Part shown: in pieces, positions 23,470 to 63,103 of the stretch | Position numbering within the stretch: position 1 is the stretch's first letter | Layout: each line of letters starts with the position of its first letter | Source of the DNA: Nitrospinales bacterium | GTDB lineage: Bacteria; Nitrospinota; Nitrospinia; Nitrospinales; VA-1 | Assembly (NCBI GenBank): GCA_965223795.1 | Contig: CBDCXL010000002.1 | Span: forward strand, 577,036-641,035 | Direction of reading: 5' to 3' | DNA length: 64,000 nucleotides | The notes under the pieces: model-generated | What the model saw: the letters and a program-made list of their open reading frames with translations, nothing else | What the model was told of the DNA's origin: nothing | The model's database searches: none | Made by a program: the position numbers and the translations under genes

Positions 23470-23497
23470 TTCCCATACCCCCCGCGGGACTCCCCGC

Positions 23498-25198
23498 TCA
23501 GGATCGGCACTGCTCTCCGGGATTGTTCAGATAGGCCCAAAGGTCGGTCCCCGGCATCAGCACGCCTTTTTTGATCAGCCCCTGATTGACGGTCTCGCCG
23601 TGGTCCATGAGGAACCAGAACTTGAGCAGGATTTTCTCCTCGGGCGTGGTGTGGGGGTCTTCCCAGTTCGGCACGGAGCGGTGACTGGCGTGCGCATCCA
23701 ACAGTTCCTGAGGGATCGTGAGCCGTTTCTTTTTGATGAAGGCGTGATAGCCCTCGATGAGGATGGGTTTGAAGTCTTTGCGGCTGATTTTGATCAGCTC
23801 GGACACGCTGGGAACGCCTTCGGCGTGGAACTCGAAAAATTTGAGCTTGTAGTACTGGTGGATGGTCTCCAGCCGGAAATAGCAGTGCAGGTCCACCACA
23901 TCCGGACCGTACAGGCGGATCAGGTAGTCGCGGATCAGGGATTTGCCGACCTTGAGCAGCAGTTTGTTGAGGCGGCCGCGCTCGAAGAGATGGATACGCA
24001 CGGTGCTCAGGTGCTTCAGGCACTGGGCCTCGATGTCTTTGCGGATTTTTTCGGACTGGGCCGGGATGCGGTACCAGTAGATCTCTTCCCGCGCCACGTT
24101 GAGAGCGGAATTGAACGCTTCGTAAATCTGCTGATTGTTGGACCGCTTGGCCTGACGCGCGATCTTATAGGAGCTTTCTTTTGTGAAACCCAGCTCAATC
24201 AATTGATCCTGAAACTCCTTGCGGCTGCCCATGAGAAAGCCGCCGCGTTCTTTGATGTGGTCTTTGGCTTTTTGCACTCCCCGCAGCGCCAGGCTCACGT
24301 CGCGGGGAATCAGCTTCAAATCGTAACTTCGGGCGAATTTGTGGATCTCTTCCAGAGTCTTGAAATTGAGCTTGTCGATGTATAAGAACTTTTGAATGCT
24401 TTGCTCGGTGAAACCGCATTCCTCAAAAATCCGGATCTTCTTGTACTTGACTTCCTCCCAGTACTTGCGCGTGCCCTCTTTCTTCCTGAACTGGGCCTGG
24501 ATTTCGGACTTGGCCTTGAAAAAATAGCTGCGCAGCAGATACCATTTGATTTTCAAGGTGGACTCGATGATCCACCGGTATTTGGGGGTGAGGATGTTGA
24601 GCTTGGGATCTTCGAGAAGCTCCATCTCCTCGGTCTCCAGGATGTACTCCAGAAGCTCCAGATGCCTTTCGAGCAGGATGGGATTGATCTGCTCGATGAA
24701 TTTCCGGTAGATGGTTTTCCAGCGGAAAGGTTCAAACTGGGTAGCCGGTTCGCCGCCTTCGGCTGCATCCTGAATCCGGCTTTTGATTTTCTGCACGCCC
24801 ACTTGCTCGATCTTTTCGAACAATTCGTCGCGGGCGACGATATCACGGATTTTCAGCTGTTTCAGACGGCTGATGACGTCGGGGATGCGTTCGTTTAAGG
24901 CCTCATCGATTTCCCTGTAGGTCTGGATGGGAAGGAAATACAGCTCTTCGAGCAAGCCATTGACGTTTTCCAGGGAAACGTCCGTCTTTTTCGCGAGCTG
25001 GCGGTAGAGATCGAAATCGAGGATCTTGTCGCCGGTCTGGCAGGCGCGGATGTCCTTCAGGAAGCTTCTGGCTTTTTTCAGCTCCTCTCTTTGGGCATAG
25101 GGATCGTTGATGATCCTCAAAAAGAGATATTCCGCCCTTTGCAGATCCCTTTGAGCAAGGAGTTCCAGTCCCTGCGTCATGGGGTCGAATACGAACAT
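23498..25198 (-). CDS. hypothetical 566-aa Lys/Glu-rich helical protein
   Basis: A GGGAGGAAG Shine-Dalgarno precedes the ATG at 25198; the track start at 25318 adds 40 aa. I recognise no motifs. A terminator separates it from nxrC. Confidence 0.6.
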   Translation of the reverse strand: MFVFDPMTQGLELLAQRDLQRAEYLFLRIINDPYAQREELKKARSFLKDIRACQTGDKILDFDLYRQLAKKTDVSLENVNGLLEELYFLPIQTYREIDEALNERIPDVISRLKQLKIRDIVARDELFEKIEQVGVQKIKSRIQDAAEGGEPATQFEPFRWKTIYRKFIEQINPILLERHLELLEYILETEEMELLEDPKLNILTPKYRWIIESTLKIKWYLLRSYFFKAKSEIQAQFRKKEGTRKYWEEVKYKKIRIFEECGFTEQSIQKFLYIDKLNFKTLEEIHKFARSYDLKLIPRDVSLALRGVQKAKDHIKERGGFLMGSRKEFQDQLIELGFTKESSYKIARQAKRSNNQQIYEAFNSALNVAREEIYWYRIPAQSEKIRKDIEAQCLKHLSTVRIHLFERGRLNKLLLKVGKSLIRDYLIRLYGPDVVDLHCYFRLETIHQYYKLKFFEFHAEGVPSVSELIKISRKDFKPILIEGYHAFIKKKRLTIPQELLDAHASHRSVPNWEDPHTTPEEKILLKFWFLMDHGETVNQGLIKKGVLMPGTDLWAYLNNPGEQCRS

Positions 25199-25367
25199 GT
25201 TCTTCCTCCCGCACTCAATCCGGGCTGTTCCGGTCAAGTCTGGGTCTAAGGGTCTTCTCCCCGGCCGACGAGGCGGCCCAAGCAATTTACTGATAGGCTG
25301 ACAGCAGCGTGAAACCAACGGGCAGGATTATCAATAAATTAAGATTTGCTCTTTTTTTTAGATGCGT

Positions 25368-25405
25368 GATTTTTGAGCCGGGTTTTTAATAATGACTCAA
25401 AAATC
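25368..25405. promoter_or_regulatory. 10-bp perfect inverted repeat in the AT-rich region upstream of the 566-aa gene
   Basis: GATTTTTGAG (25368-25377) and CTCAAAAATC (25396-25405) are separated by an 18-nt spacer. Confidence 0.3.
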
Positions 25406-25445
25406 TCATAATTTTTCCGGGGAGATGGGGCGGGAGGGGGCAGGC

Positions 25446-25484
25446 AAAAAAAACCGGGACGGCCTGCAAAGCAGACCGCCCCGG
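25446..25484 (-). terminator. rho-independent terminator ending the nxr operon
   Basis: On the minus strand, a CCGGGGCGGTC / GGCCGTCCCGG stem pairs at 9/11 positions and is followed by T8. Confidence 0.8.
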
Positions 25485-25519
25485 ATTTTTAAAACTCAAT
25501 CGGTCACAAGGAAAAAAGC

Positions 25520-26521
25520 TCAGTACTGCAGCTCATGCCACTGGGTGACGCCTTTCTGACCGTTTCTTTCTTTGTTCTGACCGTTCCAGATCGCGAATGC
25601 GATCGGGGTTTTGCCACTCGAAAACTGAGTGTCGTTCTGGTCATCGGTTTTGAGAGCGCGTTTGTAGACTACGCCCCAGCGGTCATTGCTCCAGTTGCCT
25701 TCACCGTCCACATCCTGATTCGCCTGAGTGGTCAGCGTGCTGAACCCTTCGGCATTCAGGTCTTCAACAGGCGATACGCGCATGGATGCTTCGGAGAGGA
25801 TGTTACCGGTAGCACGACCGGGATTGAACACGCCCTCGTCTTTACCCATGCCGAAATCGACGTAGGTGCTGCGCTTGGAGATGTCGCTGGCTCCGCCGGA
25901 CTCGATGCCGGCCGCGTTCCGCTTGGACTTGCTGCCGGAAGCGTGCTGGGTGTCGAGACCTTTGAGTGCACCATCAGGCTCATACATGTAGTAACTGCCG
26001 GAACCCATGGCCATGTACTTGTACTGATCTTCCATGTCCAGCATTCCCTTGTTACCGGTTTTCCCTGCGCCTTCTTTATTCCAGGTCGCTTTCCACTGCC
26101 AGATGTTGACCCGCTCGCCGTCACCACCCATGGTGAACGGAGGCTCTTCACCGGTCTGGTTCACAGGAAACATGATCGCACCCTGGTCCCTGTACTGCTG
26201 GGACTGCACCATGATGTCGTTTCTTGTGGGATCGGTCCAGGAAACCCGGATTGCGATTTCCTTGCCATTGGTGGCGGCTTTCACATTGACCCACTTGGTC
26301 GCGGGATTCGGCCACATGGGATTGGTGATCATCTGCGGATCCAGATCGATGACCACGTGTTTGCCCTTGGTGGGACCGTAATTGGACCAGAAAGGATCGG
26401 TCGGATCAATGGGGATTTCGCCCTGAACTTTCAATGCCTTGATCGTGGCCGCGCCAGCGCTGGACGCAAACAGACCGAGCATCAAAGCTGAAATTAAAAT
26501 GAGTAGATACGTCTTCTTCAC
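25520..26521 (-). CDS. nxrC: NxrC-like gamma subunit (type II DMSO-reductase-family heme-b subunit, EbdC/DdhC-like) with Sec signal peptide
   Basis: 333 aa. The signal peptide is MKKTYLLILISALMLGLFASSAGA. The EB_dh-like region is PFWSNYGP ... AIRVSWTDPTRNDIM ... DQGAIMFPVNQ. It is the last gene of the operon. Confidence 0.7.
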   Translation of the reverse strand: MKKTYLLILISALMLGLFASSAGAATIKALKVQGEIPIDPTDPFWSNYGPTKGKHVVIDLDPQMITNPMWPNPATKWVNVKAATNGKEIAIRVSWTDPTRNDIMVQSQQYRDQGAIMFPVNQTGEEPPFTMGGDGERVNIWQWKATWNKEGAGKTGNKGMLDMEDQYKYMAMGSGSYYMYEPDGALKGLDTQHASGSKSKRNAAGIESGGASDISKRSTYVDFGMGKDEGVFNPGRATGNILSEASMRVSPVEDLNAEGFSTLTTQANQDVDGEGNWSNDRWGVVYKRALKTDDQNDTQFSSGKTPIAFAIWNGQNKERNGQKGVTQWHELQY

Positions 26522-26576
26522 AGTATTCTCTCCTCGTTAGCAAACAGATTAATCAAGTCAATCGAGGAAAAGCCCG

Positions 26577-27395
26577 CTAACGGGGTTCGCATTCCGCAGG
26601 AGCATTTGCAATCAGATCGTTTTCCATACTGTAGGACAAAGAACGGAATTCCGGTTCTTCCACCTTGATCGGCTGGATGTCCAGAAGCGTGTTTTCGTTC
26701 CTGAGAAAAATCGACAGGATATCGACGATGTCCTTGTACAGTCCGCGTTCCGCCTTGCGGGACGTGAAGATGCAAAACAAAGGAGCCCAGCGTCCAACAT
26801 GGTTGCGCATGAATTTCTTCATGCTGCTGAGCAGGACTCCGATCTTTCGCTCGTCATGACCGTTCTGGATTCCATATGCAGTCCTGAAGCACATGTAATA
26901 CATGAAGGCCAGTTCAATCGAAATATGGTCCAGGCGTTCCTTCGAACGTTTCCTCGGCAATTCGAAACCGAAGGTTTCAAAAAAGCCGCCCAGCTGGATC
27001 AATACGTCCGTCTGGGACTGGATCCCGCCTTCCGTACCATACTGCATTTCGTATGGAGGACACTCCATAGAAACCGCATGCCCGAAAACGTGGATGTACT
27101 CTTTCTGCACCTGCTGGACGGTCATTTTCGGCAGGTATTTGCTGAATCCGCTCACAATGGATTCAACCTGCTTCCAATCGTCCTCGTCCACAAGGGCGAT
27201 ATCCATGGGTTCGAGTAAAGATTTGGGACGGAAAAACTTGCGATTCCAGGGATAACTCAAGGCACGTGAAAGAATATCGTATATCCGTCCTCGCGCGAGG
27301 TTTAGGGATATTCTCTGTTCTTTCAGTTCTTCAAGAGTGCCGGTTTCCCCAAGTTTCGCCAACATGGGATCCGATGCTTGAGTCACGTTCGCCAT
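26577..27395 (-). CDS. TorD/NarJ-family redox-enzyme maturation chaperone
   Basis: 272 aa. The family pattern is QKEYIHVFG ... CPPYEMQYG ... GGFFETFGFEL ... RLDHISIELAFMYYM. It lies between nxrB and nxrC. Confidence 0.75.
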   Translation of the reverse strand: MANVTQASDPMLAKLGETGTLEELKEQRISLNLARGRIYDILSRALSYPWNRKFFRPKSLLEPMDIALVDEDDWKQVESIVSGFSKYLPKMTVQQVQKEYIHVFGHAVSMECPPYEMQYGTEGGIQSQTDVLIQLGGFFETFGFELPRKRSKERLDHISIELAFMYYMCFRTAYGIQNGHDERKIGVLLSSMKKFMRNHVGRWAPLFCIFTSRKAERGLYKDIVDILSIFLRNENTLLDIQPIKVEEPEFRSLSYSMENDLIANAPAECEPR

Positions 27396-27531
27396 ATTCG
27401 ATAATCTCCAAAATCCCCGAAGGTTACCCGCAATCCGGAGCAGGGAGTGGAATCTCCCTGCCCCGGCGTTGCAGGATGAGCTCTTGCTTCAAGCGAGTCC
27501 CGGTTAAGGGCTTTCGCCTTCACTTCACTCC

Positions 27532-28809
27532 TTAGATGGCGCCGACATGCTCCTCGGGCCGGACGTAGAAAGGCTCTTCAACCGTCACGCGGATGACTTC
27601 CTTTCCTTTCCGGTTGAACCCGATGATCGTGTCGTTGTACATCTCAAACTTCTTGCCGTGAATGTTGGTCTCGAAGATCTTCGGACCCGGCTCACGTTTC
27701 CATTTGAAGATGATGCGCTGTGTCGTCCTAAAGAGCTGAAGGACGCCCAGCAGATCCCGGTCCGGAACCATGTACTGATCGATCGCATGGTCGACGCCCG
27801 GTCCGAACATCTGCTGTGAATAGGCCCTGGGAACGTGCCGCGACGGTACGTAGTAACCGTTCGGCTCGGTGCCCAGCTGCGGATACAGCGGCAGTGCGAC
27901 TTTGCGGTCCCGGATCATGTAATACTGCGGATTCTCGGGATCGTGCGCCCATTCGCCGTTGCTGCCTATCTTCACCAGACCCTGAAGGCGAATCTTGCCG
28001 ACACAGGCGGCCATGCAGCGGGTCTCCATCTGATCGCCTTCCGTCAACGGATCCAGTCCTTCGATCCTCGGGTAACAGGCGATGCATTTCTCGGAGATCC
28101 GCGTCGTGCCGCGGAACATCGGCTTTTTGTAAGGACACTGCTCAACGCACTTTTTGTAACCACGGCAGCGCGACTGGTCGATCAGAACGATGCCGTCCTC
28201 CTGGCGCTTGTAGATCGCCTTACGGGGACACGCCGCCAGACAGCCCGGATACGTGCAGTGGTTGCAGATGCGCTGGACATAGAAAAACCAGATTTTGTGC
28301 TCGGGCAGCACCGAACGCGTTCCGTTGTCGCCGCCGAAGGTGCCTTCGCGGGACTGCGTGAACTCGCGGCCGTGAGCGGTGTCTTCGCCGAAGTTCGGGA
28401 AGCGCCACTCTTCGTCCGTCGGTACGTAACCGATCGCTTGCTGGTTCAAACCGATCTTGGCAGGCGCTTCGAAAATCGTCACGCCTTCGTACACGCCGTG
28501 GATCGCCTTGTTGGAAGTCTTGCGGACGTTCCACACGTTCTGACCCGGATTGGACTGCTCAAGCATCTTCAAGATCTTCCAATCCCAGAACTGCGGGTAA
28601 CCGCCGTAAGGCTTCGTTTCAACGTTGTTCCACCACATATACTCCTGGCCCTTGGAGAAGGTCCAGGTGGATTTATGGGCCATCGTACACGTCTGACAAG
28701 CAATGCAGCGGTTCGTGTTGAACACGAACGTAAACTGCTCTTTCGGATGCTTCTCTTCGTATACGTAAGTAGACATCCGGCCCAGTTGCCAGTTATAGAC
28801 TTCAGGCAT
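27532..28809 (-). CDS. nxrB: nitrite oxidoreductase beta subunit (Fe-S subunit of a type II DMSO reductase family enzyme)
   Basis: 425 aa. The Cys clusters are CIACQTC, CNHCTYPGCLAACP, CRGYKKCVEQCP, CIACYPR and CMAAC. A perfect TAAGGAGG Shine-Dalgarno is present. Confidence 0.8.
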   Translation of the reverse strand: MPEVYNWQLGRMSTYVYEEKHPKEQFTFVFNTNRCIACQTCTMAHKSTWTFSKGQEYMWWNNVETKPYGGYPQFWDWKILKMLEQSNPGQNVWNVRKTSNKAIHGVYEGVTIFEAPAKIGLNQQAIGYVPTDEEWRFPNFGEDTAHGREFTQSREGTFGGDNGTRSVLPEHKIWFFYVQRICNHCTYPGCLAACPRKAIYKRQEDGIVLIDQSRCRGYKKCVEQCPYKKPMFRGTTRISEKCIACYPRIEGLDPLTEGDQMETRCMAACVGKIRLQGLVKIGSNGEWAHDPENPQYYMIRDRKVALPLYPQLGTEPNGYYVPSRHVPRAYSQQMFGPGVDHAIDQYMVPDRDLLGVLQLFRTTQRIIFKWKREPGPKIFETNIHGKKFEMYNDTIIGFNRKGKEVIRVTVEEPFYVRPEEHVGAI

Positions 28810-28861
28810 TATCGTACCTCCTTAGCTTACTGTGTGTTCAGTTCCGTTAAATACCGGATGC

Positions 28862-28889
28862 GGCGGGCTCCCCACAAGGGAAGCCCGCC
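28862..28889 (-). other. strong intercistronic hairpin between nxrA and nxrB
   Basis: On the minus strand, GGCGGGCTTCCC-TTGT-GGGGAGCCCGCC pairs at 11/12 positions. No T-run follows. Confidence 0.5.
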
Positions 28890-28899
28890 AACACCAGAT

Positions 28900-31800
28900 T
28901 TAAATCTTCACGCGGACGTACTGACCTGCAAGGTACATTTCCGCGAATCGGTCTTTCAACGGTGACTCCGGGGTGTAACCCGTTCGCACGGGCTCCCACA
29001 GTCCTTTACCATGGAGACCACCATCCTCGGCCTTGGAGAATTTAACCAGCGTCTCTTTCGGAACTGCGTTGATCGCATGGTTATCCGCTTCGTAACCGTG
29101 GAGGAACTTCATCTTGGTTTTTGCCTTATGGAACAGACTGTCCGTCTGATGCATGGGCATCAACCAGGACCGCGTGATGGACTGCTGACCGCCGTACCGG
29201 AAGTTGGACTGATACGGAGTGGTCATCGACATGGCGCGGCCGTCGGGGCGTTCTTCATGGGCCTTGACGGTACGCTCGGTGCCGGTCCACGTGGCGTGTT
29301 TCATCATGGTGGTATGGTACGGATATGCCGGGTTGTACTTCGCCCGCAGCATGAGCCGTGCCACTTTGTACCTCGGATCCGACGGTTTCCAACCCATGTA
29401 CGGCCGGTCAGCGGGATTCGCGTCGCAGTATACATAGTCACCGTCGTTGATACCCAGGTCTTTACACAGGAACGGGTTCATGTGCACCTGCCACTCACCA
29501 ACACCCGGAGAACGCTTATCCATGCGGTAAGGATCGCCGAAGTTGTTGTTCCAGATCATATTCCAGTCCGTGGTGGCCCAGGAAGAATGCGCGGTATGTC
29601 TGGATTTCGGAGTGACGCAGTAGAACCGGTACCCCTTCTCCCACAAGAAGTTCTTGGTCGTACGCACTGCGGACCAGGGCTTCTTGATGTTACGGACGTG
29701 GCGCAGATCCGGATCCTGCTCGTCTTCCGGAATGCCGTAGTCGTCCGGCCGGATGTAGGGGTTGGTGGACACGATCACGTTCGGCAGATAAGGCGTCGCT
29801 TCAGGTCCTTCACGATGGACGATGAAGTTTTCGCCCCACTCGATCGCTTCCGGTTCGTCATTGTAGAACTGGATGCGGCCGTTCGGAGTGTAGAAAGGCT
29901 TCGACTCCGTGAACATCTCCCAGAACGGAGACCGCGGATAGGTCCGGTACAGCATCAAACAACATCCCGGCTCACCGTACTTGCCGTTGATGATGTCGTC
30001 GATGTTGTAGCCCATACCCGTGGTGGAGGTAGTGAATACCCGGCGAATCATGGCTTTCGTCCGGTTGGGCGCTTCGCCTTCATATACTTTCATATGATCG
30101 GCAAACCGCTTGTCACCGGTGACTTCCGCCAGACGCTTGGAGAATTCACGATGCATCAGGTTGTCGTCGATGGTGTCGAAGATCGGCTTGATGCCGGTGC
30201 CGCCCCAGATCTGATGGAACGGGTTCGAACACGCGGACGTGATCTCGTAAGACTCGAATTCCGCCCAGGAGTTCGGCGCCAAAACGATGTCCGAGTACTC
30301 GCAGGATCCGGTGAACTCGATGTCCTGAGCCACGATCATGTCGACGTTGTTGTTGGTGTTGAACACCAGCTCGTAGAACCACTTCGCGTTGTTGATGACG
30401 TTGACGTTAACGAACCAAACAAGCTTAGTGGGCGTCGGCATATGGGTGCGGCCGGTGAACACTTTCCGTCCATACCGCGGGGTATTGACGACCAGCGCTT
30501 TATCGCGGTGCGCCCAGTATCCGACTTCCTCACCCTTCAGGTAACCCTTGACGTTCTTCCAGTCGATGTTCTTGGCCGGATCGAGAACGGTGTTGAAGGG
30601 ATCTTCCGCGACCATCGCGGCGAAACCAGGTCCTGACCAGTGGGAACCCTGGTAGTTGCCGGCTTTGTAGTTGCCCGCCCAGGTGTGGGAACCGGAGCCT
30701 TTCGGGCCTACGTTACCGGTCAGCATCAGGGGCACATAAGAAGCCCGGTTGTGCATCGTGGCGTGGAAGTAATGGTTGATGCCTTCCCCGTAGTGGATCT
30801 CAACCGGCTTGATGGTGCCGATGTCGCGGGCAACACGAAGCACGAGATCACGCGGGGCGTGACTGATCTGATTGACGGTATCCAGATCGTAGTCTTTCAG
30901 ATGTACTTTGTACATCTCGTACAGAGGCATGACGGTGATCGTCTTGCCGCTCACGAGCTTGATGTCATAAACACCGTCCAGTGCAGGATCGATGTTTTTC
31001 TTCTTCATCTTCGCGCCGATGTCTTCGCGGTTGATCGCAACCGGTTTGTCCGAGTTGGTATCCCACACGACGAAATCGGGCATCTTGTCACGGTTGAAGT
31101 TGGCCATCCACTTCGTGGTCGCTCCATCCTTCGGCAGGGCCTGAGCCTTGTAGCCGGGGATGAAATCGTCCGGATGCAGACGGATCAGGTTGTCCGTTCG
31201 CACCAGAAGCGGCATGTCGGTGTACTCCTTAACGTAGTCCACATCGACCAGACCTTCTTCCATGATGATCTTCGCACAGCCCAGAAAGATGGAGATGTCC
31301 GAAAGACCCGCACGCACCGGAACCCAGTAGTCCGCCTTGGTTGCCGGCGGGTTGTACTCCGGAGCGATCGCAACGAGCGTGCCGCCGCGTTCCATGATCT
31401 CCGTGTACCAGTGGGCTTCCGGCATCTTGTTCTCGATCAGGTTCTTACCCCACTGAATCGTCATCTTCGCATACCGGTGGTCGGCGAAGTCGATGTCGGA
31501 GGTCTGCATTCCGTGCGTCCAGGAATGCCCCGGCGCCTGGTCGCCGTGCCAGGTGTAGTTCGACCATGCGCGGCCGCCCAATACCTGTCCCGGTCCCCGG
31601 CCCCGAATGATCGAGTCCAGAAGGGCCACCTGGTTGCCCAGGCGGTAAATGCCGTACTTGCCGATAACGCCGAGAAGTCCCATGCCGCCGCGGTACTTGA
31701 AAGTACGCGGGCCGGAACCGCCCATCGCTTCGATCATTTCAGGCTGATAACCTTCGTTCTTCAGGCGCTGGGCACCGCGGGCGCCGCTGTATGCTTTTGC

Positions 31801-32361
31801 AACGGCCACGTGGCCTTTCGCCAGATAGGTGAAGGTCTGATCCCAGGTCAAACGGACGAACTCGTCCGTGCCCCGGCTGGTGAACTTATATTTTTCGCGG
31901 TTTTCTTTATCCAGAAACGGAAAACCGTCGTCCGCCCACTGTTTCCAGCCGACGCGGATCATCGGATACTTGTTCCGATAAGGTCCGTACGCCCGGCGGG
32001 GATAGGTCATGCCACGCAGACACATGCGCGGGTTCCACGCTGCGTCGGCCTGGTTGCCGTAAAGGTCGCGGACTTTGTGATGATCGTAGTTCTGCTCGAT
32101 ACGCATCAGGATGCCGTTACGAACGAATCCGCGTACGCGGCACTGATGGGTGTCGTTGGGCGAACAGCAGTAGGTGAAAGACCGCTCATACTTGTACTGA
32201 TCGCGGTACACTTCCTCCCAACGCCGGTCGGGATAGGATTCCAACGGGTTTCCTACCTTCACTACGGGCTTTAACTGAGCTCCTACCTTCTTGCTGGAAA
32301 GGGCCATAGCTGTCGCTACACCAGCACTCACCTGCAAGAATTTCCTTCTGTTTAACCTCAT
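28900..32361 (-). CDS. nxrA: nitrite oxidoreductase alpha subunit, periplasmic type (Mo-bisPGD, Tat-exported)
   Basis: 1153 aa. The twin-arginine signal is MRLNRRKFLQVSAGVATAMALS and the FS0 Cys segment is FTYCCSPNDTHQCRVRGF. The size and the 425-aa beta partner fit the Nitrospira/Nitrospina/anammox NXR better than Nar, Ser, Pcr or Ebd enzymes. A GGGAGGG Shine-Dalgarno is present. Confidence 0.78.
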   Translation of the reverse strand: MRLNRRKFLQVSAGVATAMALSSKKVGAQLKPVVKVGNPLESYPDRRWEEVYRDQYKYERSFTYCCSPNDTHQCRVRGFVRNGILMRIEQNYDHHKVRDLYGNQADAAWNPRMCLRGMTYPRRAYGPYRNKYPMIRVGWKQWADDGFPFLDKENREKYKFTSRGTDEFVRLTWDQTFTYLAKGHVAVAKAYSGARGAQRLKNEGYQPEMIEAMGGSGPRTFKYRGGMGLLGVIGKYGIYRLGNQVALLDSIIRGRGPGQVLGGRAWSNYTWHGDQAPGHSWTHGMQTSDIDFADHRYAKMTIQWGKNLIENKMPEAHWYTEIMERGGTLVAIAPEYNPPATKADYWVPVRAGLSDISIFLGCAKIIMEEGLVDVDYVKEYTDMPLLVRTDNLIRLHPDDFIPGYKAQALPKDGATTKWMANFNRDKMPDFVVWDTNSDKPVAINREDIGAKMKKKNIDPALDGVYDIKLVSGKTITVMPLYEMYKVHLKDYDLDTVNQISHAPRDLVLRVARDIGTIKPVEIHYGEGINHYFHATMHNRASYVPLMLTGNVGPKGSGSHTWAGNYKAGNYQGSHWSGPGFAAMVAEDPFNTVLDPAKNIDWKNVKGYLKGEEVGYWAHRDKALVVNTPRYGRKVFTGRTHMPTPTKLVWFVNVNVINNAKWFYELVFNTNNNVDMIVAQDIEFTGSCEYSDIVLAPNSWAEFESYEITSACSNPFHQIWGGTGIKPIFDTIDDNLMHREFSKRLAEVTGDKRFADHMKVYEGEAPNRTKAMIRRVFTTSTTGMGYNIDDIINGKYGEPGCCLMLYRTYPRSPFWEMFTESKPFYTPNGRIQFYNDEPEAIEWGENFIVHREGPEATPYLPNVIVSTNPYIRPDDYGIPEDEQDPDLRHVRNIKKPWSAVRTTKNFLWEKGYRFYCVTPKSRHTAHSSWATTDWNMIWNNNFGDPYRMDKRSPGVGEWQVHMNPFLCKDLGINDGDYVYCDANPADRPYMGWKPSDPRYKVARLMLRAKYNPAYPYHTTMMKHATWTGTERTVKAHEERPDGRAMSMTTPYQSNFRYGGQQSITRSWLMPMHQTDSLFHKAKTKMKFLHGYEADNHAINAVPKETLVKFSKAEDGGLHGKGLWEPVRTGYTPESPLKDRFAEMYLAGQYVRVKI

Positions 32362-32500
32362 AAAACTTGCCCTCCCTTTTGGCTTTTTTCAAATACAGCC
32401 AATGGAATTAATGTTTGAGCTCTGTTTACAACAGCACACTTCCTGTATGCCTTCGAAAATACCCTCCCTTCTTGAAATAGTCGTTTCACTTATAACTCAC

Positions 32501-32517
32501 ATTCGTGGGTCACGAAT
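32501..32517. promoter_or_regulatory. perfect palindrome ATTCGTG-N3-CACGAAT about 140 nt upstream of nxrA
   Basis: It has 7-bp arms and a 3-nt spacer, and starts 18 nt downstream of the stop of the preceding gene. It could be an operator or a small hairpin. Confidence 0.35.
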
Positions 32518-32534
32518 TAACATGATCGGCCGGA

Positions 32535-33755
32535 TCAACCGACTCCGGCCCTCAACTCATACACTTCGATGCAACGGTCACAGGCCCCGTCCTTGCTTTC
32601 CCAGTCGGGAAAATCAATCTGGATGGCCTCGATGACCATTTCATCGCAGATACTCTCGGGATCGTCCACCCAGTTGTAAGTGGGAAACTTGCACAACGGG
32701 CACGGGGATCCCTGCAAATGGATATAGTCTCTCTCCTCTTCCGCCAACTCCGCTTCATCAACATACTTGGCCATCAGCGTGTCCAGATCGGTGGCCATCG
32801 ACAACAATTCCTCATGGGTGAACACTTCGGTGCGCCACAAGCCTTCGAAGATACCCTTACGCTGACCATCCGGAATTTTGCGGTAAAAGTTGTCGAATTC
32901 GCGGTAGCGGGATTCTTTGGACATAACGGACACAACGCCCATTCTGGCCAATCGCGCATCCACATAAACGTTCCACAACAGGCGGAAGCGTGCGGTGATC
33001 ATGTTCTTGACCGACGGATTACCGGGAATGAAGGAATCCTCGTAGTCAAACTCAGGATCGACCATATCCTTCGCATGCATGAACTCGTGGATGAGAAACG
33101 CATCCAGCTCCTGGACTTCCTCAGGATTGCTGAAACGGCTCGCCAGAACCCGCATCTCGATGATGGGCTTGTTGGAGGTTCGCGCCAGAACATTCGAACC
33201 TTCATCAACCTTGTTGATCGCCCGTTTGACCGTGACCTCCTGAATTCGTTCTTCAAAGTCACGCGCCAGATCGTAGGCGATCTCGCCTTCATCGATGTCG
33301 TCTTGGGGCTGATCTGAAACTTCGGAAGCGTCTTCTTGGGTGGGGACAGGCTGATCCTGCTCGGTGGGAGTGCTTTCTAGGGTTTCGCCTTGGGATGCTT
33401 CCGGGGAAGAAGCGTCTTCTTCTAGGGTTTCGCCGGACGTTTCTTCCGCTGATGGATCCTGCAACTGGTGGGATTGAGGAGCCTTATTGCGGCCAACGGA
33501 GCGCTGACTCTTTGGAATCAGGCCAACCGCCTCTAAGGCTCGCAGCACATGTTCCCCGAGTTTCAGCTTCTCTATGAAGAACAGGCGGTTTACTTTCTCA
33601 AACGCCTCTTCGCGGTCGTCCTCGGGGAGTTCGTATATGGGGTCCGCAAGGGAATGGTATTCATCATAATCGGCACGGAACCCGGAACGCTCATGGTGGT
33701 TCAGGTGCCTGAATACGGCTTCTTCCATCAATTGCGGGCTGTAGGTAACTTTCAT
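32535..33755 (-). CDS. hypothetical protein with an HExxH motif, an acidic low-complexity linker and a C-terminal CxxC...CxxC zinc-ribbon
   Basis: 406 aa. It contains FLIHEFMHAKD, a roughly 90-aa Glu/Asp/Ser/Pro-rich linker with GETLE repeats, and a C-terminus CPLCKF ... CDRCIEVY. It lies immediately upstream of nxrA on the same strand. Confidence 0.6.
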   Translation of the reverse strand: MKVTYSPQLMEEAVFRHLNHHERSGFRADYDEYHSLADPIYELPEDDREEAFEKVNRLFFIEKLKLGEHVLRALEAVGLIPKSQRSVGRNKAPQSHQLQDPSAEETSGETLEEDASSPEASQGETLESTPTEQDQPVPTQEDASEVSDQPQDDIDEGEIAYDLARDFEERIQEVTVKRAINKVDEGSNVLARTSNKPIIEMRVLASRFSNPEEVQELDAFLIHEFMHAKDMVDPEFDYEDSFIPGNPSVKNMITARFRLLWNVYVDARLARMGVVSVMSKESRYREFDNFYRKIPDGQRKGIFEGLWRTEVFTHEELLSMATDLDTLMAKYVDEAELAEEERDYIHLQGSPCPLCKFPTYNWVDDPESICDEMVIEAIQIDFPDWESKDGACDRCIEVYELRAGVG

Positions 33756-34200
33756 CTGCCCATTTCTATTAAGATAAAGCGGTCAGCGTGCAAGGATCGA
33801 TATTAAGTTTTCCCGGCGTCTTTTTACCCTAGATGGAGTAAGTTATATGTAACTTCAAAGCCATTGTCAAGACAAACCCATCATTTTTTTTGGGGAAAAA
33901 CTGGGGAAAAACTTTGAATTTTCCCGCCTCTTCGGCACGCGAGGAGAGATTTTTTCTACTGCGATCCCATTTGCCAACAACTATTTGATTTGCCTAAAGT
34001 TTTTACAAAAAAACAGTGCGATAGAAAGGTTTTTCAGACACATCGGGCGGGAACCCACTGGCCTTGATCTCAAAATCCACAATATGGATCACAGCCCCTT
34101 ATCACAATTCCTAATTTCTCACTAAAAATCCGGAATCACGATCCCGCCCTCAATTCAGAGACTTGTGCCGGACAGCCTGACCGGCTTTTGTTCGGACTGC

Positions 34201-36831
34201 CTATTTTTTATCGACAGCATCTTTCAGCTTGTCGATTTCCTGGATCATCTTCATGAAATGCTCGGGGTCGCCCAGCTCTTTGGCCACCGCACGGGCATTT
34301 TCGAGGTATTTCTCCCCCGGGTCCTTCCTGCTGAGCAGGATTTCCATGCGAGCCACGGTTAAAAGCAACTGGATCTGATGCGAAAGGGCCCTGGCTTCGG
34401 CAAACGTTTCCGCAGCCTGGTCGAAGTAGGACTCCCCCTCCTCAAATTGGATCTCCTTGAAATGGAGGTTCCCCAGATAGGTCAGATCCTGAGCGCATCC
34501 GATTTTATCTCCTATTTCCCGCGTCAGAGCCAATGCCTTGAGATACAGTTGTTTGGCCTTGACCCGGTCGCCGTTGCTGAAACTCAGGTTGGCGAGGTTG
34601 CGGTAATCCTCAGCCATTCCCTGCTTGTCTTTATTCCTTTCGACAATATCGAAAGATTCCTGATATCTGGTTTCGGCTTTTTCTTTATATCCACGTTCCA
34701 GAAAATACTGGCCGAGGCTTCTGAGATCGATGCTGATTTCCTTGTCGTCTTTGAGCGCCCTTGCGAACTCCAGGGCTTTCTCAAGATAGGACTGCTGATT
34801 CGGCCGGTCTTTCTTCTCTGAATAGATGTTTGCCAGATTGCGGCAATCGTAGCAGGCGGCACGCAGGTTTTTGCTTTCCTCGGCAATTTCAAGAGCCTTC
34901 AGGGCGTACTGCTCCGCCCGGCCCCAGTCCTCCTTCTGCACGTACAGCGCATACAGGTTCCTGTGGTCTTCGCTCATCTCCACCCGGTTGCCTGCCTGCT
35001 CGTCGAGCTTGAGCGCCTCCAGGTAATTGCGTTCCGCGCCGGCAAAATCGGTCTTGTTGAGACACATGTCCCCCAGACTGCGGTGATCTTCGACCTGACC
35101 GCGGCTGTCGCCCTGCCCTTCATGGAAGGCGATGGATTTTTTCATCCACTTTTCGGCGGCATCAAATTTATTGAGCTGGACGAACATCTTCGCCCGGCTG
35201 CGGTAGAGTTCGCCCAGCCCCTGCCTGTCGCCGAGCTTTTCCTTGATGGCGATCGCCTGGCCGTAGGACTCACCGGCTTTTTGATATTCCTTTTTCTCCT
35301 GCAGGACTCCGGCAAGGCTCTCCAGAACGGCGGCCTTCACGCCTTCGTCCTTGGACATTTCCGGCAGGGCGAGGGCTTTTTCAAACGCAGCGACGGCTTC
35401 ATCGAGCTGCCCCGCCATGAAATGCACGTTGGCCAGCTCGGTCATGAGGCTCATCTTTGCGGCGGGGTCCTTTTCGACGTCCGGGCTTTCCAGCAGGGAG
35501 GCGATGTCTTCCTGCCTCTGGGACAGGTATTTGGGCTGCGCCATGATGTAGACGAGCTTGTCCTGCACCTGCTGGGTGCTGCGGCTGTCTTTCATGGCGT
35601 CGTACAGGGAGTTGGCGCGGATGAAATAGGACTCGGCGTCCCTGTATTCCTCTTTTTTCATCAGGATGTCGCCGATGGCCTCGCACTGCTGCGCCATGCC
35701 GGGACGGTTTTCCAGCTTCTCCATGATCTCGAGCGACTGCCGATACAACTCCAGCGCGGGCTCCCACTCTTCCTTAAGGGTGCGCACCTGCCCGAGGTTG
35801 GCAAAACTGCGCGCCTCGCCCAACGCATCGCCCAGGGCGCTCATGATTTTGCGGGAATCTTCGTAGTACTCCAGCGCCTGATCGAGGTTTTTCTTGTGCA
35901 GGCATATGTTGCCGAGGCTGCCCAGAAGGTAGGACTGACGGCGCTGGTCCTTGCCTTCCTGAACGATCTTCAAGGCCTTGCGGAAATTTTCCTCGGCGCT
36001 GTCGAGGTATTCCGGGCCGCCTTTCTGCGCCAGTTGCAGGCAGGCTCCGCCCAGATTGCCGTAACAGATGCCGGCGGACTGGGTGTCCCCCAGTTCTTCA
36101 TAAAGGGCGATGGATTTTTCTATGGTCTCGGCGACCTTGTCCATTCGGGCGGATTTGAAATAGATCTCCTCAAGCTCCTGATAGCGGGCCAGCAATTCTT
36201 TTTTGTCGCCGGATTGCGCCAGAGAGTTGATGGTCTTGAGCAGCGCGGTCTCCTGCTGCGCGAGATAGCGGGTGTTCTTCTGGATGGATTCGACTTTATC
36301 GTTGAGCGCGTCGATCCGCTCCTTGTCTTTTTCCGGGTCCAGGCTCGCATGCGCCTTCTGGAAGTAATCCTTCGCGGTGTCGAATTCCTCTTTCTGCATG
36401 TGAACGTTGCCGAGGTACTCATAATAGACCGCCTGGCCGCCGGTGTCGTTCGCCTTGACCATGAGCTGCAAGGCTTTGTGGTAATTTTCCTCGGCCTTGT
36501 CCAGGCTGCCTTTGTACAGATACACCGAACCCAGGTTGCCGAGGGAGCTTTCGATGCCTTTCAGATCCTCCACTTTTTCCATCAGCGCCAAAGACTGGGA
36601 ATAGTAGTCCTCCGCCTTGTCCAGCTTGCGGCTCTGAAAACAGATATTCCCCAGGTTGCCGAGCACATAGGCCTGGCCGGTTTCGTCGCCCGACTGATGC
36701 ATGAACTTGAGGGCCTTGAGAAAATGGGATTCCGCTTCTTTCAAATCGTTTTTTTCCAGCGAGGCGTAACCGAGTTTTTCGTATTTTCTTCCGTCTTCCA
36801 TCGGGCAATCACTTAAAAGAGAGGTTGTCAT
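34201..36831 (-). CDS. large tetratricopeptide-repeat (TPR) protein
   Basis: About 876 aa of nearly continuous TPR units, following a recurring A/G..Y..LG..Y pattern. The start is uncertain: ATG at 36831 or 36801, while the track start at 36993 adds implausible residues. Confidence 0.75.
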   Translation of the reverse strand: MTTSLLSDCPMEDGRKYEKLGYASLEKNDLKEAESHFLKALKFMHQSGDETGQAYVLGNLGNICFQSRKLDKAEDYYSQSLALMEKVEDLKGIESSLGNLGSVYLYKGSLDKAEENYHKALQLMVKANDTGGQAVYYEYLGNVHMQKEEFDTAKDYFQKAHASLDPEKDKERIDALNDKVESIQKNTRYLAQQETALLKTINSLAQSGDKKELLARYQELEEIYFKSARMDKVAETIEKSIALYEELGDTQSAGICYGNLGGACLQLAQKGGPEYLDSAEENFRKALKIVQEGKDQRRQSYLLGSLGNICLHKKNLDQALEYYEDSRKIMSALGDALGEARSFANLGQVRTLKEEWEPALELYRQSLEIMEKLENRPGMAQQCEAIGDILMKKEEYRDAESYFIRANSLYDAMKDSRSTQQVQDKLVYIMAQPKYLSQRQEDIASLLESPDVEKDPAAKMSLMTELANVHFMAGQLDEAVAAFEKALALPEMSKDEGVKAAVLESLAGVLQEKKEYQKAGESYGQAIAIKEKLGDRQGLGELYRSRAKMFVQLNKFDAAEKWMKKSIAFHEGQGDSRGQVEDHRSLGDMCLNKTDFAGAERNYLEALKLDEQAGNRVEMSEDHRNLYALYVQKEDWGRAEQYALKALEIAEESKNLRAACYDCRNLANIYSEKKDRPNQQSYLEKALEFARALKDDKEISIDLRSLGQYFLERGYKEKAETRYQESFDIVERNKDKQGMAEDYRNLANLSFSNGDRVKAKQLYLKALALTREIGDKIGCAQDLTYLGNLHFKEIQFEEGESYFDQAAETFAEARALSHQIQLLLTVARMEILLSRKDPGEKYLENARAVAKELGDPEHFMKMIQEIDKLKDAVDKK

Positions 36832-37075
36832 CGGAAGGGACACAGACACGCTGGGACCCCGAAGATGAAGAAAGACCCGGCGAACAAAACGCTGCGGCGG
36901 CCTGATCTTGTTGTAGAAAGTGAATGATATCGAATTATATTGCCCGGAAAGAGAGGTGTCAACATGAGGCCCAAGGGATGGACCGGCACCCATTATAGCG
37001 CATCCGAATTTTAATGTGTTTGTTTTTTATGGAATATCAATCAGTTTTTGAATATCCGCAATCGGCAGGCAGGCA

Positions 37076-62960: not shown

Positions 62961-62973
62961 AAAGCTAAAGACG

Positions 62974-63002
62974 GTCTCGCGCAAAGCCGCGAAGACGCAA
63001 AG
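62974..63002. repeat. solo copy of the left end of the family A long element
   Basis: GTCTCGCGCAAAGCCGCGAAGACGCAAAG matches 8810-8838 (GTCTCGCGCAAAGACGCGAAGACGCAAAT) with 2 mismatches. It lies at the left border of the AT-rich insert. Confidence 0.7.
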
Positions 63003-63103
63003 AAAAGCGAAAACTTAATACAGGATGACAGGATGAAATTCAGGAAAGCCTAATGATCCAGGTGAATCGAATATAAACTTATTCCCTACTTGGAAGGGTT
63101 GAA

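What the first reader, a model, noticed from the sequence alone, without database searches (positions are those of the whole stretch)
25446..32361. Complete periplasmic-type nitrite oxidoreductase operon in A-B-chaperone-C order
The operon encodes four proteins:
- NxrA: 1153 aa, twin-arginine signal MRLNRRKFLQ, FS0 segment CCSPNDTHQCR
- NxrB: 425 aa with five Cys clusters
- a TorD/NarJ-like chaperone
- a Sec-exported EbdC-like heme-b subunit

All four lie on one strand with strong Shine-Dalgarno sites and a terminator after the last gene.

The alpha/beta sizes and the Tat signal fit the periplasmic NXR of Nitrospira, Nitrospina and anammox bacteria better than NarGH or the smaller Ser, Ddh, Pcr or Ebd enzymes. 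The A-B-D-C gene order mirrors the ser, ddh and clr operons.

This is the key catabolic locus. It anchors the organism assignment and gives context for the unknown genes flanking it.
Basis: partly seen in the sequence, partly recalled or inferred. Interest (0 to 1): 0.55.

Follow-up and report, generated by a model that had tools for sequence, protein, structure and literature searches.

The report
Nitrospina-type periplasmic nitrite oxidoreductase operon
This is an intact nxrA-nxrB-nxrD-nxrC operon for the periplasmic nitrite-oxidising enzyme of marine Nitrospina-lineage bacteria, correctly read by the first stage but already described in the literature, so it is ordinary apart from two small side observations.

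Summary
Four minus-strand genes lie at 25520-32361: NxrA (1153 aa), NxrB (425 aa), a TorD/NarJ-type chaperone (272 aa) and an EB_dh haem-b subunit (333 aa). A strong terminator follows at 25446-25484.

NxrA aligns end to end with the Kuenenia NXR structure 7B04 (1713 bits, against 148 for PcrA and about 108 for NarG). It carries every reference residue. It falls in a 100 %-bootstrap Nitrospina clade inside the periplasmic NXR clade.

The nxrABDC order was already published for 'Ca. Nitromaritima' (Ngugi 2016), and the exact NxrA and NxrB proteins are already in public databases. Verdict: correct and already known.

Corrections:
- NxrB has four Cys groups (14 Cys), not five.
- The closest genome has a second nxrABC copy, so this may not be the only catabolic locus.

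Side observations:
- A conserved, uncharacterised HExxHxxD plus four-Cys protein (32535-33755) sits immediately upstream of nxrA in Nitrospina and anammox clusters.
- NxrB has His45 where NarH, Kuenenia NxrB, PcrB and EbdB have an Fe-S ligand Cys. Scalindua shares this.

The parts
28900..32361 (-). nxrA: catalytic Mo-bis-MGD subunit, 1153 aa. Twin-arginine signal (NRRKFLQ). FS0 ligands C66, D70, C74, C114. Substrate Asn69. Mo ligand Asp274.
   Evidence: PF00384 4e-15. 7B04_B at 1713 bits over residues 1-1151. 93-99 % identity to Nitrospina-lineage genomes. Key residues located and invariant in 63-65 homologues. Tree placement. SD GGGAGGG at 32370-32376.
27532..28809 (-). nxrB: Fe-S electron-transfer subunit, 425 aa, no signal peptide. 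Four Cys groups with 14 Cys. Group III is of the [3Fe-4S] type (C-x2-Y-x2-C). His45 stands where NarH has Cys26.
   Evidence: Fer4_11 4e-22. 7B04_A at 624 bits. Cys map. His45 conserved in Nitrospina and Scalindua. NarH reference Cys positions.
26577..27395 (-). nxrD: cytoplasmic TorD/NarJ-family maturation chaperone, 272 aa, with no signal peptide or TM segment.
   Evidence: PF02613 1.7e-16. Best NCBIfam hit TIGR03482, the type II DMSO reductase chaperone, at 2.7e-16 but below its curated cut-off. No hydrophobic segment. Named NxrD in Ca. Nitromaritima (PMC5029188).
25520..26521 (-). nxrC: exported haem-b subunit of the EB_dh type, 333 aa, GTG start. The N-terminal hydrophobic signal ends in AGA-A. 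Haem axial ligands are Met131 and Lys323. It has no Cys and no haem-c motif.
   Evidence: PF09459 3.6e-30. 7B04_C at 121 bits and EbdC at 62 bits. Only one hydrophobic segment, within about the first 27 residues (19-residue windows starting at residues 1-9). Met131 and Lys323 invariant in 46/46 and 47/47 hits. Reference ligands Ks Met155/Lys305 from PMC8387239.
25446..25484 (-). Intrinsic terminator that closes the operon: a 14-bp stem (11 G-C pairs), a 3-nt loop and T8.
   Evidence: It lies 36 nt past the nxrC stop codon.
32535..33755 (-). Conserved upstream gene 'up406', 406 aa and cytoplasmic, in the position of Kuenenia kustd1701. It has invariant HExxHxxD (H223, E224, H227, D230) and four invariant Cys (C352, C355, C392, C395). 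The Nitrospina versions carry an acidic disordered insert at about residues 86-165. It is a candidate NXR maturation factor. Whether it is co-transcribed with nxrA is not established.
   Evidence: No Pfam hit. Alignment A1. AF2 model with pLDDT 76.8. No PDB fold or sequence match. It lies directly 5' of nxrA in Nitrospina ABDC loci, all Scalindua loci, and 21/21 anammox-type metagenome contigs. The family has 1052 clusters at 50 % identity.

Best explanation
The locus encodes the periplasmic nitrite oxidoreductase of a Nitrospina-lineage (Nitrospinales/Nitrospinaceae) nitrite-oxidising bacterium, in the nxrABDC arrangement.

Inferred mechanism, by homology to the solved Kuenenia enzyme and to type II DMSO-reductase maturation:
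- The cytoplasmic chaperone NxrD holds pre-NxrA while Mo-bis-MGD and the FS0 cluster are inserted.
- Folded NxrA, with NxrB riding along, is exported by the Tat system through NxrA's twin-arginine signal.
- NxrC is exported separately by Sec and binds one haem b through Met131 and Lys323.
- In the periplasm, nitrite is oxidised to nitrate at the Mo centre (Asp274 ligand, Asn69 positioning the substrate).
- Electrons then pass FS0 (3Cys/1Asp), the four NxrB clusters and the NxrC haem b, to reach a downstream acceptor and finally the terminal oxidase.

Shown here: gene content, homology, cofactor-ligand conservation, phylogenetic position, signals and terminator.
Inferred: direction of catalysis, export routes, the chaperone's role, and operon transcription.
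For: - Four intact co-directional ORFs with SD sites and a strong terminator.
- Pfam: PF00384, Fer4_11, PF02613 and PF09459 all above gathering thresholds.
- Full-length matches to the experimentally characterised Kuenenia NXR-ABC structure 7B04, at 1713, 624 and 121 bits, ten-fold above any other enzyme for NxrA.
- All reference residues from PMC8387239 are present and invariant across 46-65 homologues.
- The NJ tree gives 100 % bootstrap for both the Nitrospina clade and the periplasmic NXR clade.
- NxrA is in the same 90 %-identity cluster as NxrA of the cultured nitrite oxidiser N. gracilis.
- Flanking genes are syntenic with Nitrospinales genomes.
- The identical nxrABDC organisation is published for Ca. 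Nitromaritima (PMC5029188).
Against: - There is no direct evidence of expression or activity for this copy.
- NXR is reversible in vitro, so direction rests on the physiology of cultured relatives.
- NCBIfam type II DMSO-reductase subfamily models are the best hits but fall far below their curated cut-offs (for example 296 against 985 bits for alpha), so no curated equivalog model confirms the name.
- No promoter could be identified. Sigma-70-like matches are no more frequent than in shuffles, and the nxrA leader is conserved only at the SD.
- How the complex attaches to the membrane, and its immediate electron acceptor, are unresolved in the literature (PMC3578206).
Confidence: 0.93

Rival explanations
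1. The enzyme works physiologically in reverse, as a periplasmic nitrate reductase (for example under oxygen-minimum conditions), and is not the energy-conserving nitrite oxidase.
For: NXR and NAR are homologous, and NXR catalyses both directions in vitro (PMC8387239, read). Many NXR-like enzymes at about 60 % identity occur in bins not known as nitrite oxidisers, such as Betaproteobacteria-, Acidobacteria-, Chloroflexi- and NC10-labelled MAGs.
Against: NxrA is 93-99 % identical to enzymes of the Nitrospina lineage and clusters at 90 % or more with N. gracilis, an obligate nitrite oxidiser (PMC3578206). Cultured Nitrospinae from other clades also oxidise nitrite (PMC8026999). The high-potential Met/Lys haem b ligation is retained.
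Confidence: 0.04
2. It is another type II DMSO-reductase-family enzyme with the same A-B-D-C layout (selenate, chlorate, perchlorate or DMS/ethylbenzene dehydrogenase) that has been mislabelled as NXR.
For: The gene order is the same as in the ser, ddh and clr operons (general knowledge). The best NCBIfam hits are the generic type II alpha, beta, chaperone and gamma subfamily models.
Against: Those NCBIfam scores are three-fold or more below the curated cut-offs. PcrA and EbdA structures match only the central third of NxrA at 148 and 129 bits, against 1713 bits full-length for NXR. The alpha subunit is 1153 aa, against 899-976 aa for PcrA and EbdA. FS0 is 3Cys/1Asp, as in NXR, not 3Cys/1His (PMC8387239). 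The substrate Asn69 is present, where EbdA has Ile (PMC8387239).
Confidence: 0.01
3. This copy is the accessory-carrying paralogue and not the main catabolic operon. A second nxrABC copy elsewhere supplies most of the enzyme, and this locus matters mainly for nxrD and the upstream gene.
For: The closest MAG has both an ABDC locus (L001) and an ABC locus (L025), with NxrA and NxrB 99 % identical to the window's. N. gracilis has two nxrABC operons plus a separate nxrD (PMC3578206). At the same syntenic site, other Nitrospina-like contigs carry only nxrD (11 contigs) or nxrD-nxrC (5 contigs), with no nxrAB.
Against: All four ORFs here are intact, with strong SD sites and fully conserved ligands. 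The Ca. Nitromaritima single-cell genomes were reported with a single nxrABDC operon (PMC5029188). A second copy in the source genome was not shown, because the window holds only one.
Confidence: 0.15

Closest known systems
nxrABDC operon of 'Candidatus Nitromaritima' (Nitrospinae Clade 1), Ngugi et al. 2016, PMC5029188
   Same: [quoted passage not shown] NxrA has a signal peptide. NxrC has a signal peptide that overlaps a hydrophobic segment. Identity to N. gracilis subunits is comparably high.
   Different: The window comes from a different species; its closest genome is the Nitrospinales MAG CBDCWG01 (NxrA 99 %, flanking proteins 80-91 %). The paper reports NarX-like sensor and regulator genes downstream, whereas here the downstream gene is an unknown protein of about 566 aa. 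The paper does not discuss the conserved upstream gene.
Nitrospina gracilis 3/211 NXR: two nxrABC operons plus an isolated nxrD-nxrC3 (Lücker et al. 2013, PMC3578206)
   Same: NxrA falls in the same 90 % cluster. NxrB is 425 aa. NxrA has a Tat signal and NxrC a Sec-type signal. The paper lists a 'putative zinc finger' protein among genes conserved with the Kuenenia and Nitrospira clusters, which probably corresponds to the upstream gene found here.
   Different: In N. gracilis the chaperone lies outside the nxrABC operons, whereas here it sits between nxrB and nxrC. The N. gracilis layout matches the 'D-C' variant of the syntenic site seen in metagenome contigs.
Kuenenia stuttgartiensis NXR-ABC, PDB 7B04 (Chicano et al. 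2021, PMC8387239)
   Same: Full-length homology of all three subunits. Identical Mo-Asp, substrate Asn, 3Cys/1Asp FS0 and Met/Lys haem b. Kuenenia has an 'unknown protein' gene (kustd1701) next to nxrA (kustd1700) (PMC6423088). In Scalindua, a homologue of the window's upstream gene occupies that position.
   Different: About 60-68 % identity in NxrA. The anammox gene order is C-B-(x)-D-up406-A, not up406-A-B-D-C. Kuenenia NxrB keeps the all-Cys group I, while the window has His45. The anammox enzyme forms anammoxosome tubules with NXR-T, and no NXR-T-like gene lies in this window.
serABDC, ddhABDC and clrABDC; ebdABCD and pcrABCD (other type II DMSO-reductase enzymes)
   Same: The same four-component logic: a Tat-exported Mo subunit, a four-cluster Fe-S subunit, a TorD-family chaperone and a soluble EB_dh haem-b subunit. 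The gene order is A-B-D-C in ser, ddh and clr.
   Different: Only 20-30 % identity, with partial alignments. Alpha subunits are shorter. FS0 is 3Cys/1His. Curated NCBIfam cut-offs for these subfamilies are not reached.
Membrane-bound nitrate reductase NarGHJI (E. coli, PDB 1Q16)
   Same: A homologous Mo subunit, Fe-S subunit and NarJ-type chaperone, with the same Asp ligand to Mo.
   Different: NarG is cytoplasmic and has no Tat signal. Identity to NarG is 24 %. The gamma subunit NarI is an unrelated integral-membrane dihaem protein, whereas NxrC is an EB_dh monohaem protein. NarH has 15 ligand Cys, including Cys26.

Membership tests
Periplasmic NXR (Nitrospina / Nitrospira / anammox type; reference structure 7B04) | Full-length sequence homology of the alpha, beta and gamma subunits to characterised NXR, clearly above other type II enzymes | tested here: met
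   1713, 624 and 121 bits to 7B04 chains B, A and C. The next best for alpha is 148 bits, to PcrA.
Periplasmic NXR (Nitrospina / Nitrospira / anammox type; reference structure 7B04) | Phylogenetic placement of NxrA inside the periplasmic NXR clade | tested here: met
   NJ tree of 34 sequences over 1145 columns with 100 bootstraps. Nitrospina clade 100 %, NXR clade including Brocadiia and Scalindua 100 %, NarG and pNarG as outgroups. Limitation: distance method only, and no Nitrospira, Nitrobacter, Ser, Clr or Ddh references were available.
Periplasmic NXR (Nitrospina / Nitrospira / anammox type; reference structure 7B04) | N-terminal twin-arginine signal on NxrA, and none on NxrB | tested here: met
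   MRLNRRKFLQ followed by a hydrophobic stretch and VGA-Q. It aligns with the Kuenenia signal MKLTRRAFLQ. This was read from the sequence, with no dedicated Tat predictor, and the Pfam TAT_signal model did not report a hit for this copy. NxrB has no hydrophobic N-terminus.
Periplasmic NXR (Nitrospina / Nitrospira / anammox type; reference structure 7B04) | Mo-ligand Asp, substrate-positioning Asn and 3Cys/1Asp FS0 cluster in NxrA | tested here: met
   D274; N69; C66, D70, C74 and C114, equivalent to Ks D275, N70, C67, D71, C75 and C115 (PMC8387239). Invariant in 63-65 homologues.
Periplasmic NXR (Nitrospina / Nitrospira / anammox type; reference structure 7B04) | NxrB with ligands for three [4Fe-4S] clusters and one [3Fe-4S] cluster | tested here: met
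   Four Cys groups supply 14 of the canonical 15 Cys. The fifteenth position is His45, a variation shared by all Nitrospina and most Scalindua NxrB. Whether His45 actually ligates the cluster cannot be tested here.
Periplasmic NXR (Nitrospina / Nitrospira / anammox type; reference structure 7B04) | EB_dh-type gamma subunit with Met/Lys-ligated haem b | tested here: met
   PF09459 3.6e-30. Met131 and Lys323 align with Ks Met155/Lys305 and EbdC Met108/Lys201.
Periplasmic NXR (Nitrospina / Nitrospira / anammox type; reference structure 7B04) | Nitrite:acceptor oxidoreductase activity | not testable with these tools
   Inferred only, from 90 % or higher identity to N. gracilis NxrA and the physiology of cultured Nitrospinae (PMC3578206, PMC8026999).
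TorD/NarJ chaperone family (PF02613) | Match to the family HMM above the gathering threshold; cytoplasmic location | tested here: met
   60.9 bits against a 22.2 cut-off. No signal peptide or TM segment.
NCBIfam type II DMSO-reductase subfamilies (TIGR03479, TIGR03478, TIGR03482, TIGR03477) | Score at or above the curated subfamily cut-off | tested here: not met
   296 against 985, 232 against 481, 60 against 152, and 138 against 170 bits. These are the best-hitting models, but NXR lies outside their curated scope.
Respiratory nitrate reductase NarGHJI | narG/narH equivalog scores; NarI-type dihaem membrane subunit; cytoplasmic active site | tested here: not met
   narG 119.5 against 1084 bits and narH 171.5 against 524 bits. 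The gamma subunit is EB_dh, not NarI. A Tat signal is present. Identity to E. coli NarG is 24 %.

The most novel reading that the evidence does not exclude
The uncharacterised gene immediately upstream of nxrA (window 32535-33755) belongs to a large family with no Pfam model: 1052 clusters at 50 % identity, with invariant HExxHxxD and a four-Cys zinc-ribbon-like module. This family may be a dedicated NXR maturation factor that works with NxrD on pre-NxrA, for instance as a minimal zincin-type protease or metal-dependent assembly factor.

Separately, the marine Nitrospina/Scalindua NXR may carry a 3Cys/1His-ligated [4Fe-4S] cluster in NxrB (His45). That could retune the electron wire relative to the all-Cys Kuenenia enzyme. 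Neither point appears in the papers I could read.
Probability: 0.3. Interest if true: 0.45.

Novelty: already known. Interest (0 to 1): 0.17.

Why it matters
NXR produces essentially all biological nitrate, and Nitrospina-lineage bacteria are the main nitrite oxidisers of the ocean. Recognising the operon correctly therefore identifies the organism's energy metabolism and lineage. It adds no new biology, because the enzyme type, its cofactor ligands and the nxrABDC order are all published.

Two side observations are the only parts that could open a question:
- NXR maturation is poorly understood. A conserved, uncharacterised metalloprotein-like gene tied to nxrA and nxrD in both Nitrospina and anammox clusters is a concrete candidate to test.
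- A His-for-Cys ligand change in the NxrB electron wire, shared by the two marine lineages, is a testable determinant of redox tuning. It is also a possible marker of the proposed anammox-to-Nitrospina gene transfer.

Tried and rejected
- Foldseek of the upstream-protein model against the PDB found no match at E <= 0.001 (best E = 2.8). phmmer against PDB sequences found nothing at E <= 10. Its fold therefore remains unassigned.
- Scanning all 28 family members against Pfam at E <= 1 gave only sub-threshold hits to minimal zincins (M91, SprT, WLM, M76) and a treble-clef finger. I treat these as a lead, not as membership.
- Promoter search: sigma-70-like matches are no more frequent than in shuffles, and none lies in the up406-nxrA spacer. 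I saw no sigma-54 -24/-12 element by eye. Aligning the nxrA leaders of ten loci showed conservation only at the SD. Operon boundaries at the 5' end are therefore undetermined.
- The look-up of encoding contigs for the exact upstream protein returned nothing, so the source record name was not recovered.
- The NJ tree does not resolve whether Nitrospina NXR is sister to Scalindua (56 % support for a different grouping). I make no claim on the direction of transfer.
- I first assigned the haem Met to the 'IMFPV' motif. Counting through the 7B04_C and EbdC alignments corrected this to Met131 in 'FTMGG'.
- The plasmid collection held no Ser, Clr or Pcr references, only NarG/NarZ, Haloferax pNarG and a Natronococcus NXR-like enzyme.
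- I considered sequencing error for NxrB His45 and rejected it, because it is present in 41 independent loci.


Full report
**1. Observation**

The minus strand of the window carries four consecutive ORFs at exactly the reported positions:
- 28900-32361: 1153 aa, starting MRLNRRKFLQ.
- 27532-28809: 425 aa.
- 26577-27395: 272 aa.
- 25520-26521: 333 aa, with a GTG start.

The intergenic gaps are 90, 136 and 55 nt. Shine-Dalgarno sequences are strong before nxrA (AAGGGAGGG), nxrB (TAAGGAGGT) and nxrC (GAGGAG), and weaker before the chaperone gene (GGAG).

A terminator begins 36 nt after the last stop codon. It has a 14-bp stem with 11 G-C pairs at 25484..25454, followed by T8 running to 25446. 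That explains the finding's start coordinate. The segment CCSPNDTHQCR lies at NxrA residues 65-75.

NxrB has 14 cysteines in four groups, not five clusters.

**2. What the proteins are**

Pfam places all four proteins above the gathering thresholds:
- PF00384 Molybdopterin for the alpha subunit.
- Fer4_11 for the beta subunit.
- PF02613 Nitrate_red_del at 1.7e-16 for the chaperone.
- PF09459 EB_dh at 3.6e-30 for the gamma subunit.

In NCBIfam, the generic type II DMSO-reductase alpha, beta, chaperone and gamma subfamily models are the best hits, but all fall far below their curated cut-offs. NXR therefore lies outside those curated subfamilies.

The PDB comparison is clearer:
- NxrA aligns over residues 1-1151 with chain B of the Kuenenia stuttgartiensis NXR structure 7B04, at 1713 bits.
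- Perchlorate reductase scores 148 bits, ethylbenzene dehydrogenase 129 and NarG about 108, and these match only the central part of the protein.
- NxrB scores 624 bits to 7B04_A, and NxrC scores 121 bits to 7B04_C.

**3. Residue checks**

Chicano et al. 2021 (PMC8387239) give the reference residues for the Kuenenia enzyme:
- Mo ligand Asp275.
- Substrate-positioning Asn70.
- FS0 ligands Cys67, Asp71, Cys75 and Cys115, an unusual 3Cys/1Asp cluster.
- NXR-C haem b ligands Met155 and Lys305.

The window proteins have the equivalents D274, N69, C66, D70, C74 and C114 in NxrA, and Met131 and Lys323 in NxrC. The NxrA positions are invariant in 63-65 homologous loci. The NxrC positions are invariant in 46 and 47 homologous loci.

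NxrC has a single hydrophobic segment at its N-terminus, ending in AGA-A. It has no cysteines and therefore no haem-c site. NxrA, NxrB and NxrD have no hydrophobic segment apart from the NxrA Tat signal.

**4. Phylogeny and organism**

A scan of one genome per GTDB species found NxrA at 93-99 % identity in Nitrospina, Nitrospinaceae and Nitrospinales genomes. Identity is about 60 % in Scalindua and 54-62 % in various groundwater bins.

I built a neighbour-joining tree of 34 sequences over 1145 columns with 100 bootstraps, including E. coli NarG, Haloferax mediterranei pNarG and a Natronococcus enzyme. The results were:
- The window sequence falls in a Nitrospina clade with 100 % support.
- That clade lies within a periplasmic NXR clade, which includes the anammox enzymes, also with 100 % support.
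- NarG is 24 % identical and pNarG 28 % identical.

The exact NxrA and NxrB sequences are already in public collections on a 3.25-Mb contig. NxrA belongs to the same 90 %-identity cluster as N. gracilis WP_244875046.1.

The flanking genes are syntenic with the Nitrospinales MAG CBDCWG01 at 80-91 % protein identity. These are a TPR protein, the upstream gene, a downstream unknown and a GCV_T/YgfZ-TPR protein. This supports the organism assignment independently of nxr. The rest of the window is housekeeping genes.

**5. Comparison with the literature**

Lücker et al. 2013 (PMC3578206) described two nxrABC operons in N. gracilis, with the TorD-like chaperone at a separate locus beside 'NxrC3'.

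Ngugi et al. 2016 (PMC5029188) described the arrangement seen here for 'Ca. Nitromaritima'. [quoted passage not shown]

The gene order is therefore already known.

**6. Locus variants**

My own comparison of 72 genome loci shows two locus types in the lineage:
- A-B-D-C with the same flanks as the window (L001, L011, L014, L016, L043).
- A-B-C without the chaperone (about 20 loci).

The closest MAG has one of each (L001 and L025). Their NxrA sequences group with each other, not by locus type. This is consistent with concerted evolution or a recent duplication, as reported for N. gracilis. 'The key catabolic locus' may therefore be one of two copies.

**7. The upstream gene (outside the reported coordinates)**

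The 406-aa ORF at 32535-33755 has no Pfam or NCBIfam family. It has no relative in the PDB by sequence. All its database relatives are annotated as hypothetical.

Its genomic linkage is consistent:
- It lies directly 5' of nxrA in every A-B-D-C-type Nitrospina locus whose 5' flank is present.
- It also does so in every Scalindua locus, where the order is C-B-(x)-D-up406-A.
- It does so in one Acidobacteria-labelled locus as well.
- It never lies beside the A-B-C duplicates.

In Kuenenia, an 'unknown protein' gene (kustd1701) lies next to nxrA (kustd1700) (PMC6423088). In Scalindua, a homologue of the upstream gene occupies that position.

An alignment of 28 Nitrospina and anammox members shows these features:
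- Invariant H223, E224, H227 and D230 (HExxHxxD).
- Invariant C352, C355, C392 and C395.
- A Nitrospina-specific acidic insert.

The AlphaFold2 model is confident outside that insert (mean pLDDT 76.8). It finds no similar solved structure; the best Foldseek E-value is 2.8.

A profile search of 1.84 billion representatives finds 1052 clusters at E <= 0.001, typically 300-330 aa. Scanning each member against Pfam gives only weak, sub-threshold hits, to Peptidase_M91, SprT-like, WLM, M76 and a treble-clef zinc finger.

A metagenome scan with the family profile gave two patterns:
- The anammox-type gene is followed by nxrA in 21 of 21 contigs with room for it.
- The Nitrospina-type syntenic site (TPR - up406 - ... 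- unknown - ygfZ) carries variable cargo.

Among loci that span the Nitrospina-type site, the cargo is as follows (the four nxrA-B-D-C loci are the window plus the genome loci L001, L011 and L016):

| Cargo between up406 and the downstream unknown | Loci |
|---|---|
| nxrD only | 11 |
| nxrD-nxrC | 5 |
| nxrA-B-D-C (includes the window) | 4 |
| nxrB-D (possibly misassembled) | 2 |

The upstream gene's most constant partners are thus nxrD and nxrA. I infer, at low confidence, that it is an NXR maturation factor. It probably corresponds to the 'putative zinc finger' protein that Lücker et al. list among genes conserved across the Kuenenia, Nitrospira and Nitrospina clusters.

**8. NxrB His45**

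E. coli NarH has 15 ligand cysteines, including Cys26. By the ferredoxin-motif rule and my recollection of the NarGHI structure, Cys26 is a ligand of the FS2 [4Fe-4S] cluster.

Kuenenia NxrB, PcrB and EbdB keep this Cys. The window reads CIACQTCTMA-H-K, and NxrB has no spare cysteine.

The distribution across loci is as follows:
- All 29 Nitrospina-lineage nxrB copies read, of both locus types, and 12 Scalindua-type loci have His.
- Two Scalindua-like loci have Asp.
- Six groundwater loci have Cys.

Chicano et al. state that the Fe-S clusters other than FS0 are all-Cys and conserved. I found no mention of this substitution in the papers I read. It is a candidate shared derived character of the marine Nitrospina/Scalindua enzymes and a possible redox-tuning site. 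I cannot show that His45 ligates the cluster.

**9. Verdict**

The finding is real and its interpretation is correct. It is also ordinary: a well-known enzyme, in a known lineage, in a published gene order, with sequences already public.

I rate novelty 'already known' and interest low. The side observations on the upstream gene family and on NxrB His45 carry whatever residual interest there is.

Noticed in passing
window 28675-28677 (NxrB codon 45): NxrB has His45 where E. coli NarH (Cys26), Kuenenia NxrB, PcrB and EbdB have an Fe-S ligand Cys. NxrB has only 14 Cys, so nothing can compensate. All 29 Nitrospina-lineage nxrB copies read and 12 Scalindua-type loci have His, two Scalindua-like loci have Asp, and six groundwater NXR-like loci have Cys.
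   Followed up: partly
window 32535-33755 (-): A conserved, uncharacterised 406-aa protein lies directly upstream of nxrA. It has invariant HExxHxxD and four invariant Cys, no Pfam model and no PDB fold match. It is linked to nxrA and nxrD in Nitrospina and anammox clusters, in the position that kustd1701 occupies in Kuenenia. The family has about 1000 clusters at 50 % identity.
   Followed up: yes
metagenome loci L078-L127 and genome loci L001, L011 and L016, compared with window 21763-36993: The syntenic site TPR - up406 - [cargo] - unknown 566-aa gene - ygfZ holds different cargo in different Nitrospina-like loci: nxrD only (11), nxrD-nxrC (5), nxrABDC (4, including the window) and nxrB-nxrD (2). 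Some of these may be assembly collapses of the repeated nxrAB genes.
   Followed up: partly
L001 and L025 (the same MAG, CBDCWG01): The A-B-D-C and A-B-C paralogous operons of one genome have NxrA and NxrB that are both 99 % identical to the window's and that group together in the tree. Their NxrC sequences differ more (91 % and 85 % to the window). This suggests concerted evolution or a recent duplication of nxrAB.
   Followed up: partly
L032 5536-6138 (+), and the same position in other Scalindua loci: Scalindua clusters carry an extra gene of about 200 aa between nxrB and nxrD. It has an N-terminal signal-like segment, and its C-terminus repeats the four-Cys module of the up406 family (profile E about 1e-13 to 1e-18). 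The window has no equivalent.
   Followed up: no
window 23498-25318 (-), probable true start at the ATG at 25198: The gene downstream of the terminator encodes a protein of about 566 aa with no Pfam or NCBIfam family. It is conserved at this position in all Nitrospina-type loci (59-89 % identity) and is absent from the anammox clusters. Its function is unknown.
   Followed up: partly
window 37144-39117 (+): A 657-aa ORF with a clear coding GC3 signature (0.83) has no Pfam hit at E <= 1e-5 and only noise in NCBIfam.
   Followed up: no
L075 3995-7198 (Natronococcus occultus SP4 plasmid 2, NC_019976.1): A haloarchaeal plasmid carries an NXR-like alpha-subunit ORF (about 36 % identity over 91 % of NxrA), followed by annotated Fe-S and TorD-family genes. 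The alpha ORF itself has no feature in the PLSDB gene table.
   Followed up: no
window 62001-64000: GC content drops to 0.486, against 0.51-0.62 in every other 2-kb block of the window. The ORF at 63104-63427 lacks the coding GC3 signature. This may be an RNA gene, an intergenic region or foreign DNA.
   Followed up: no
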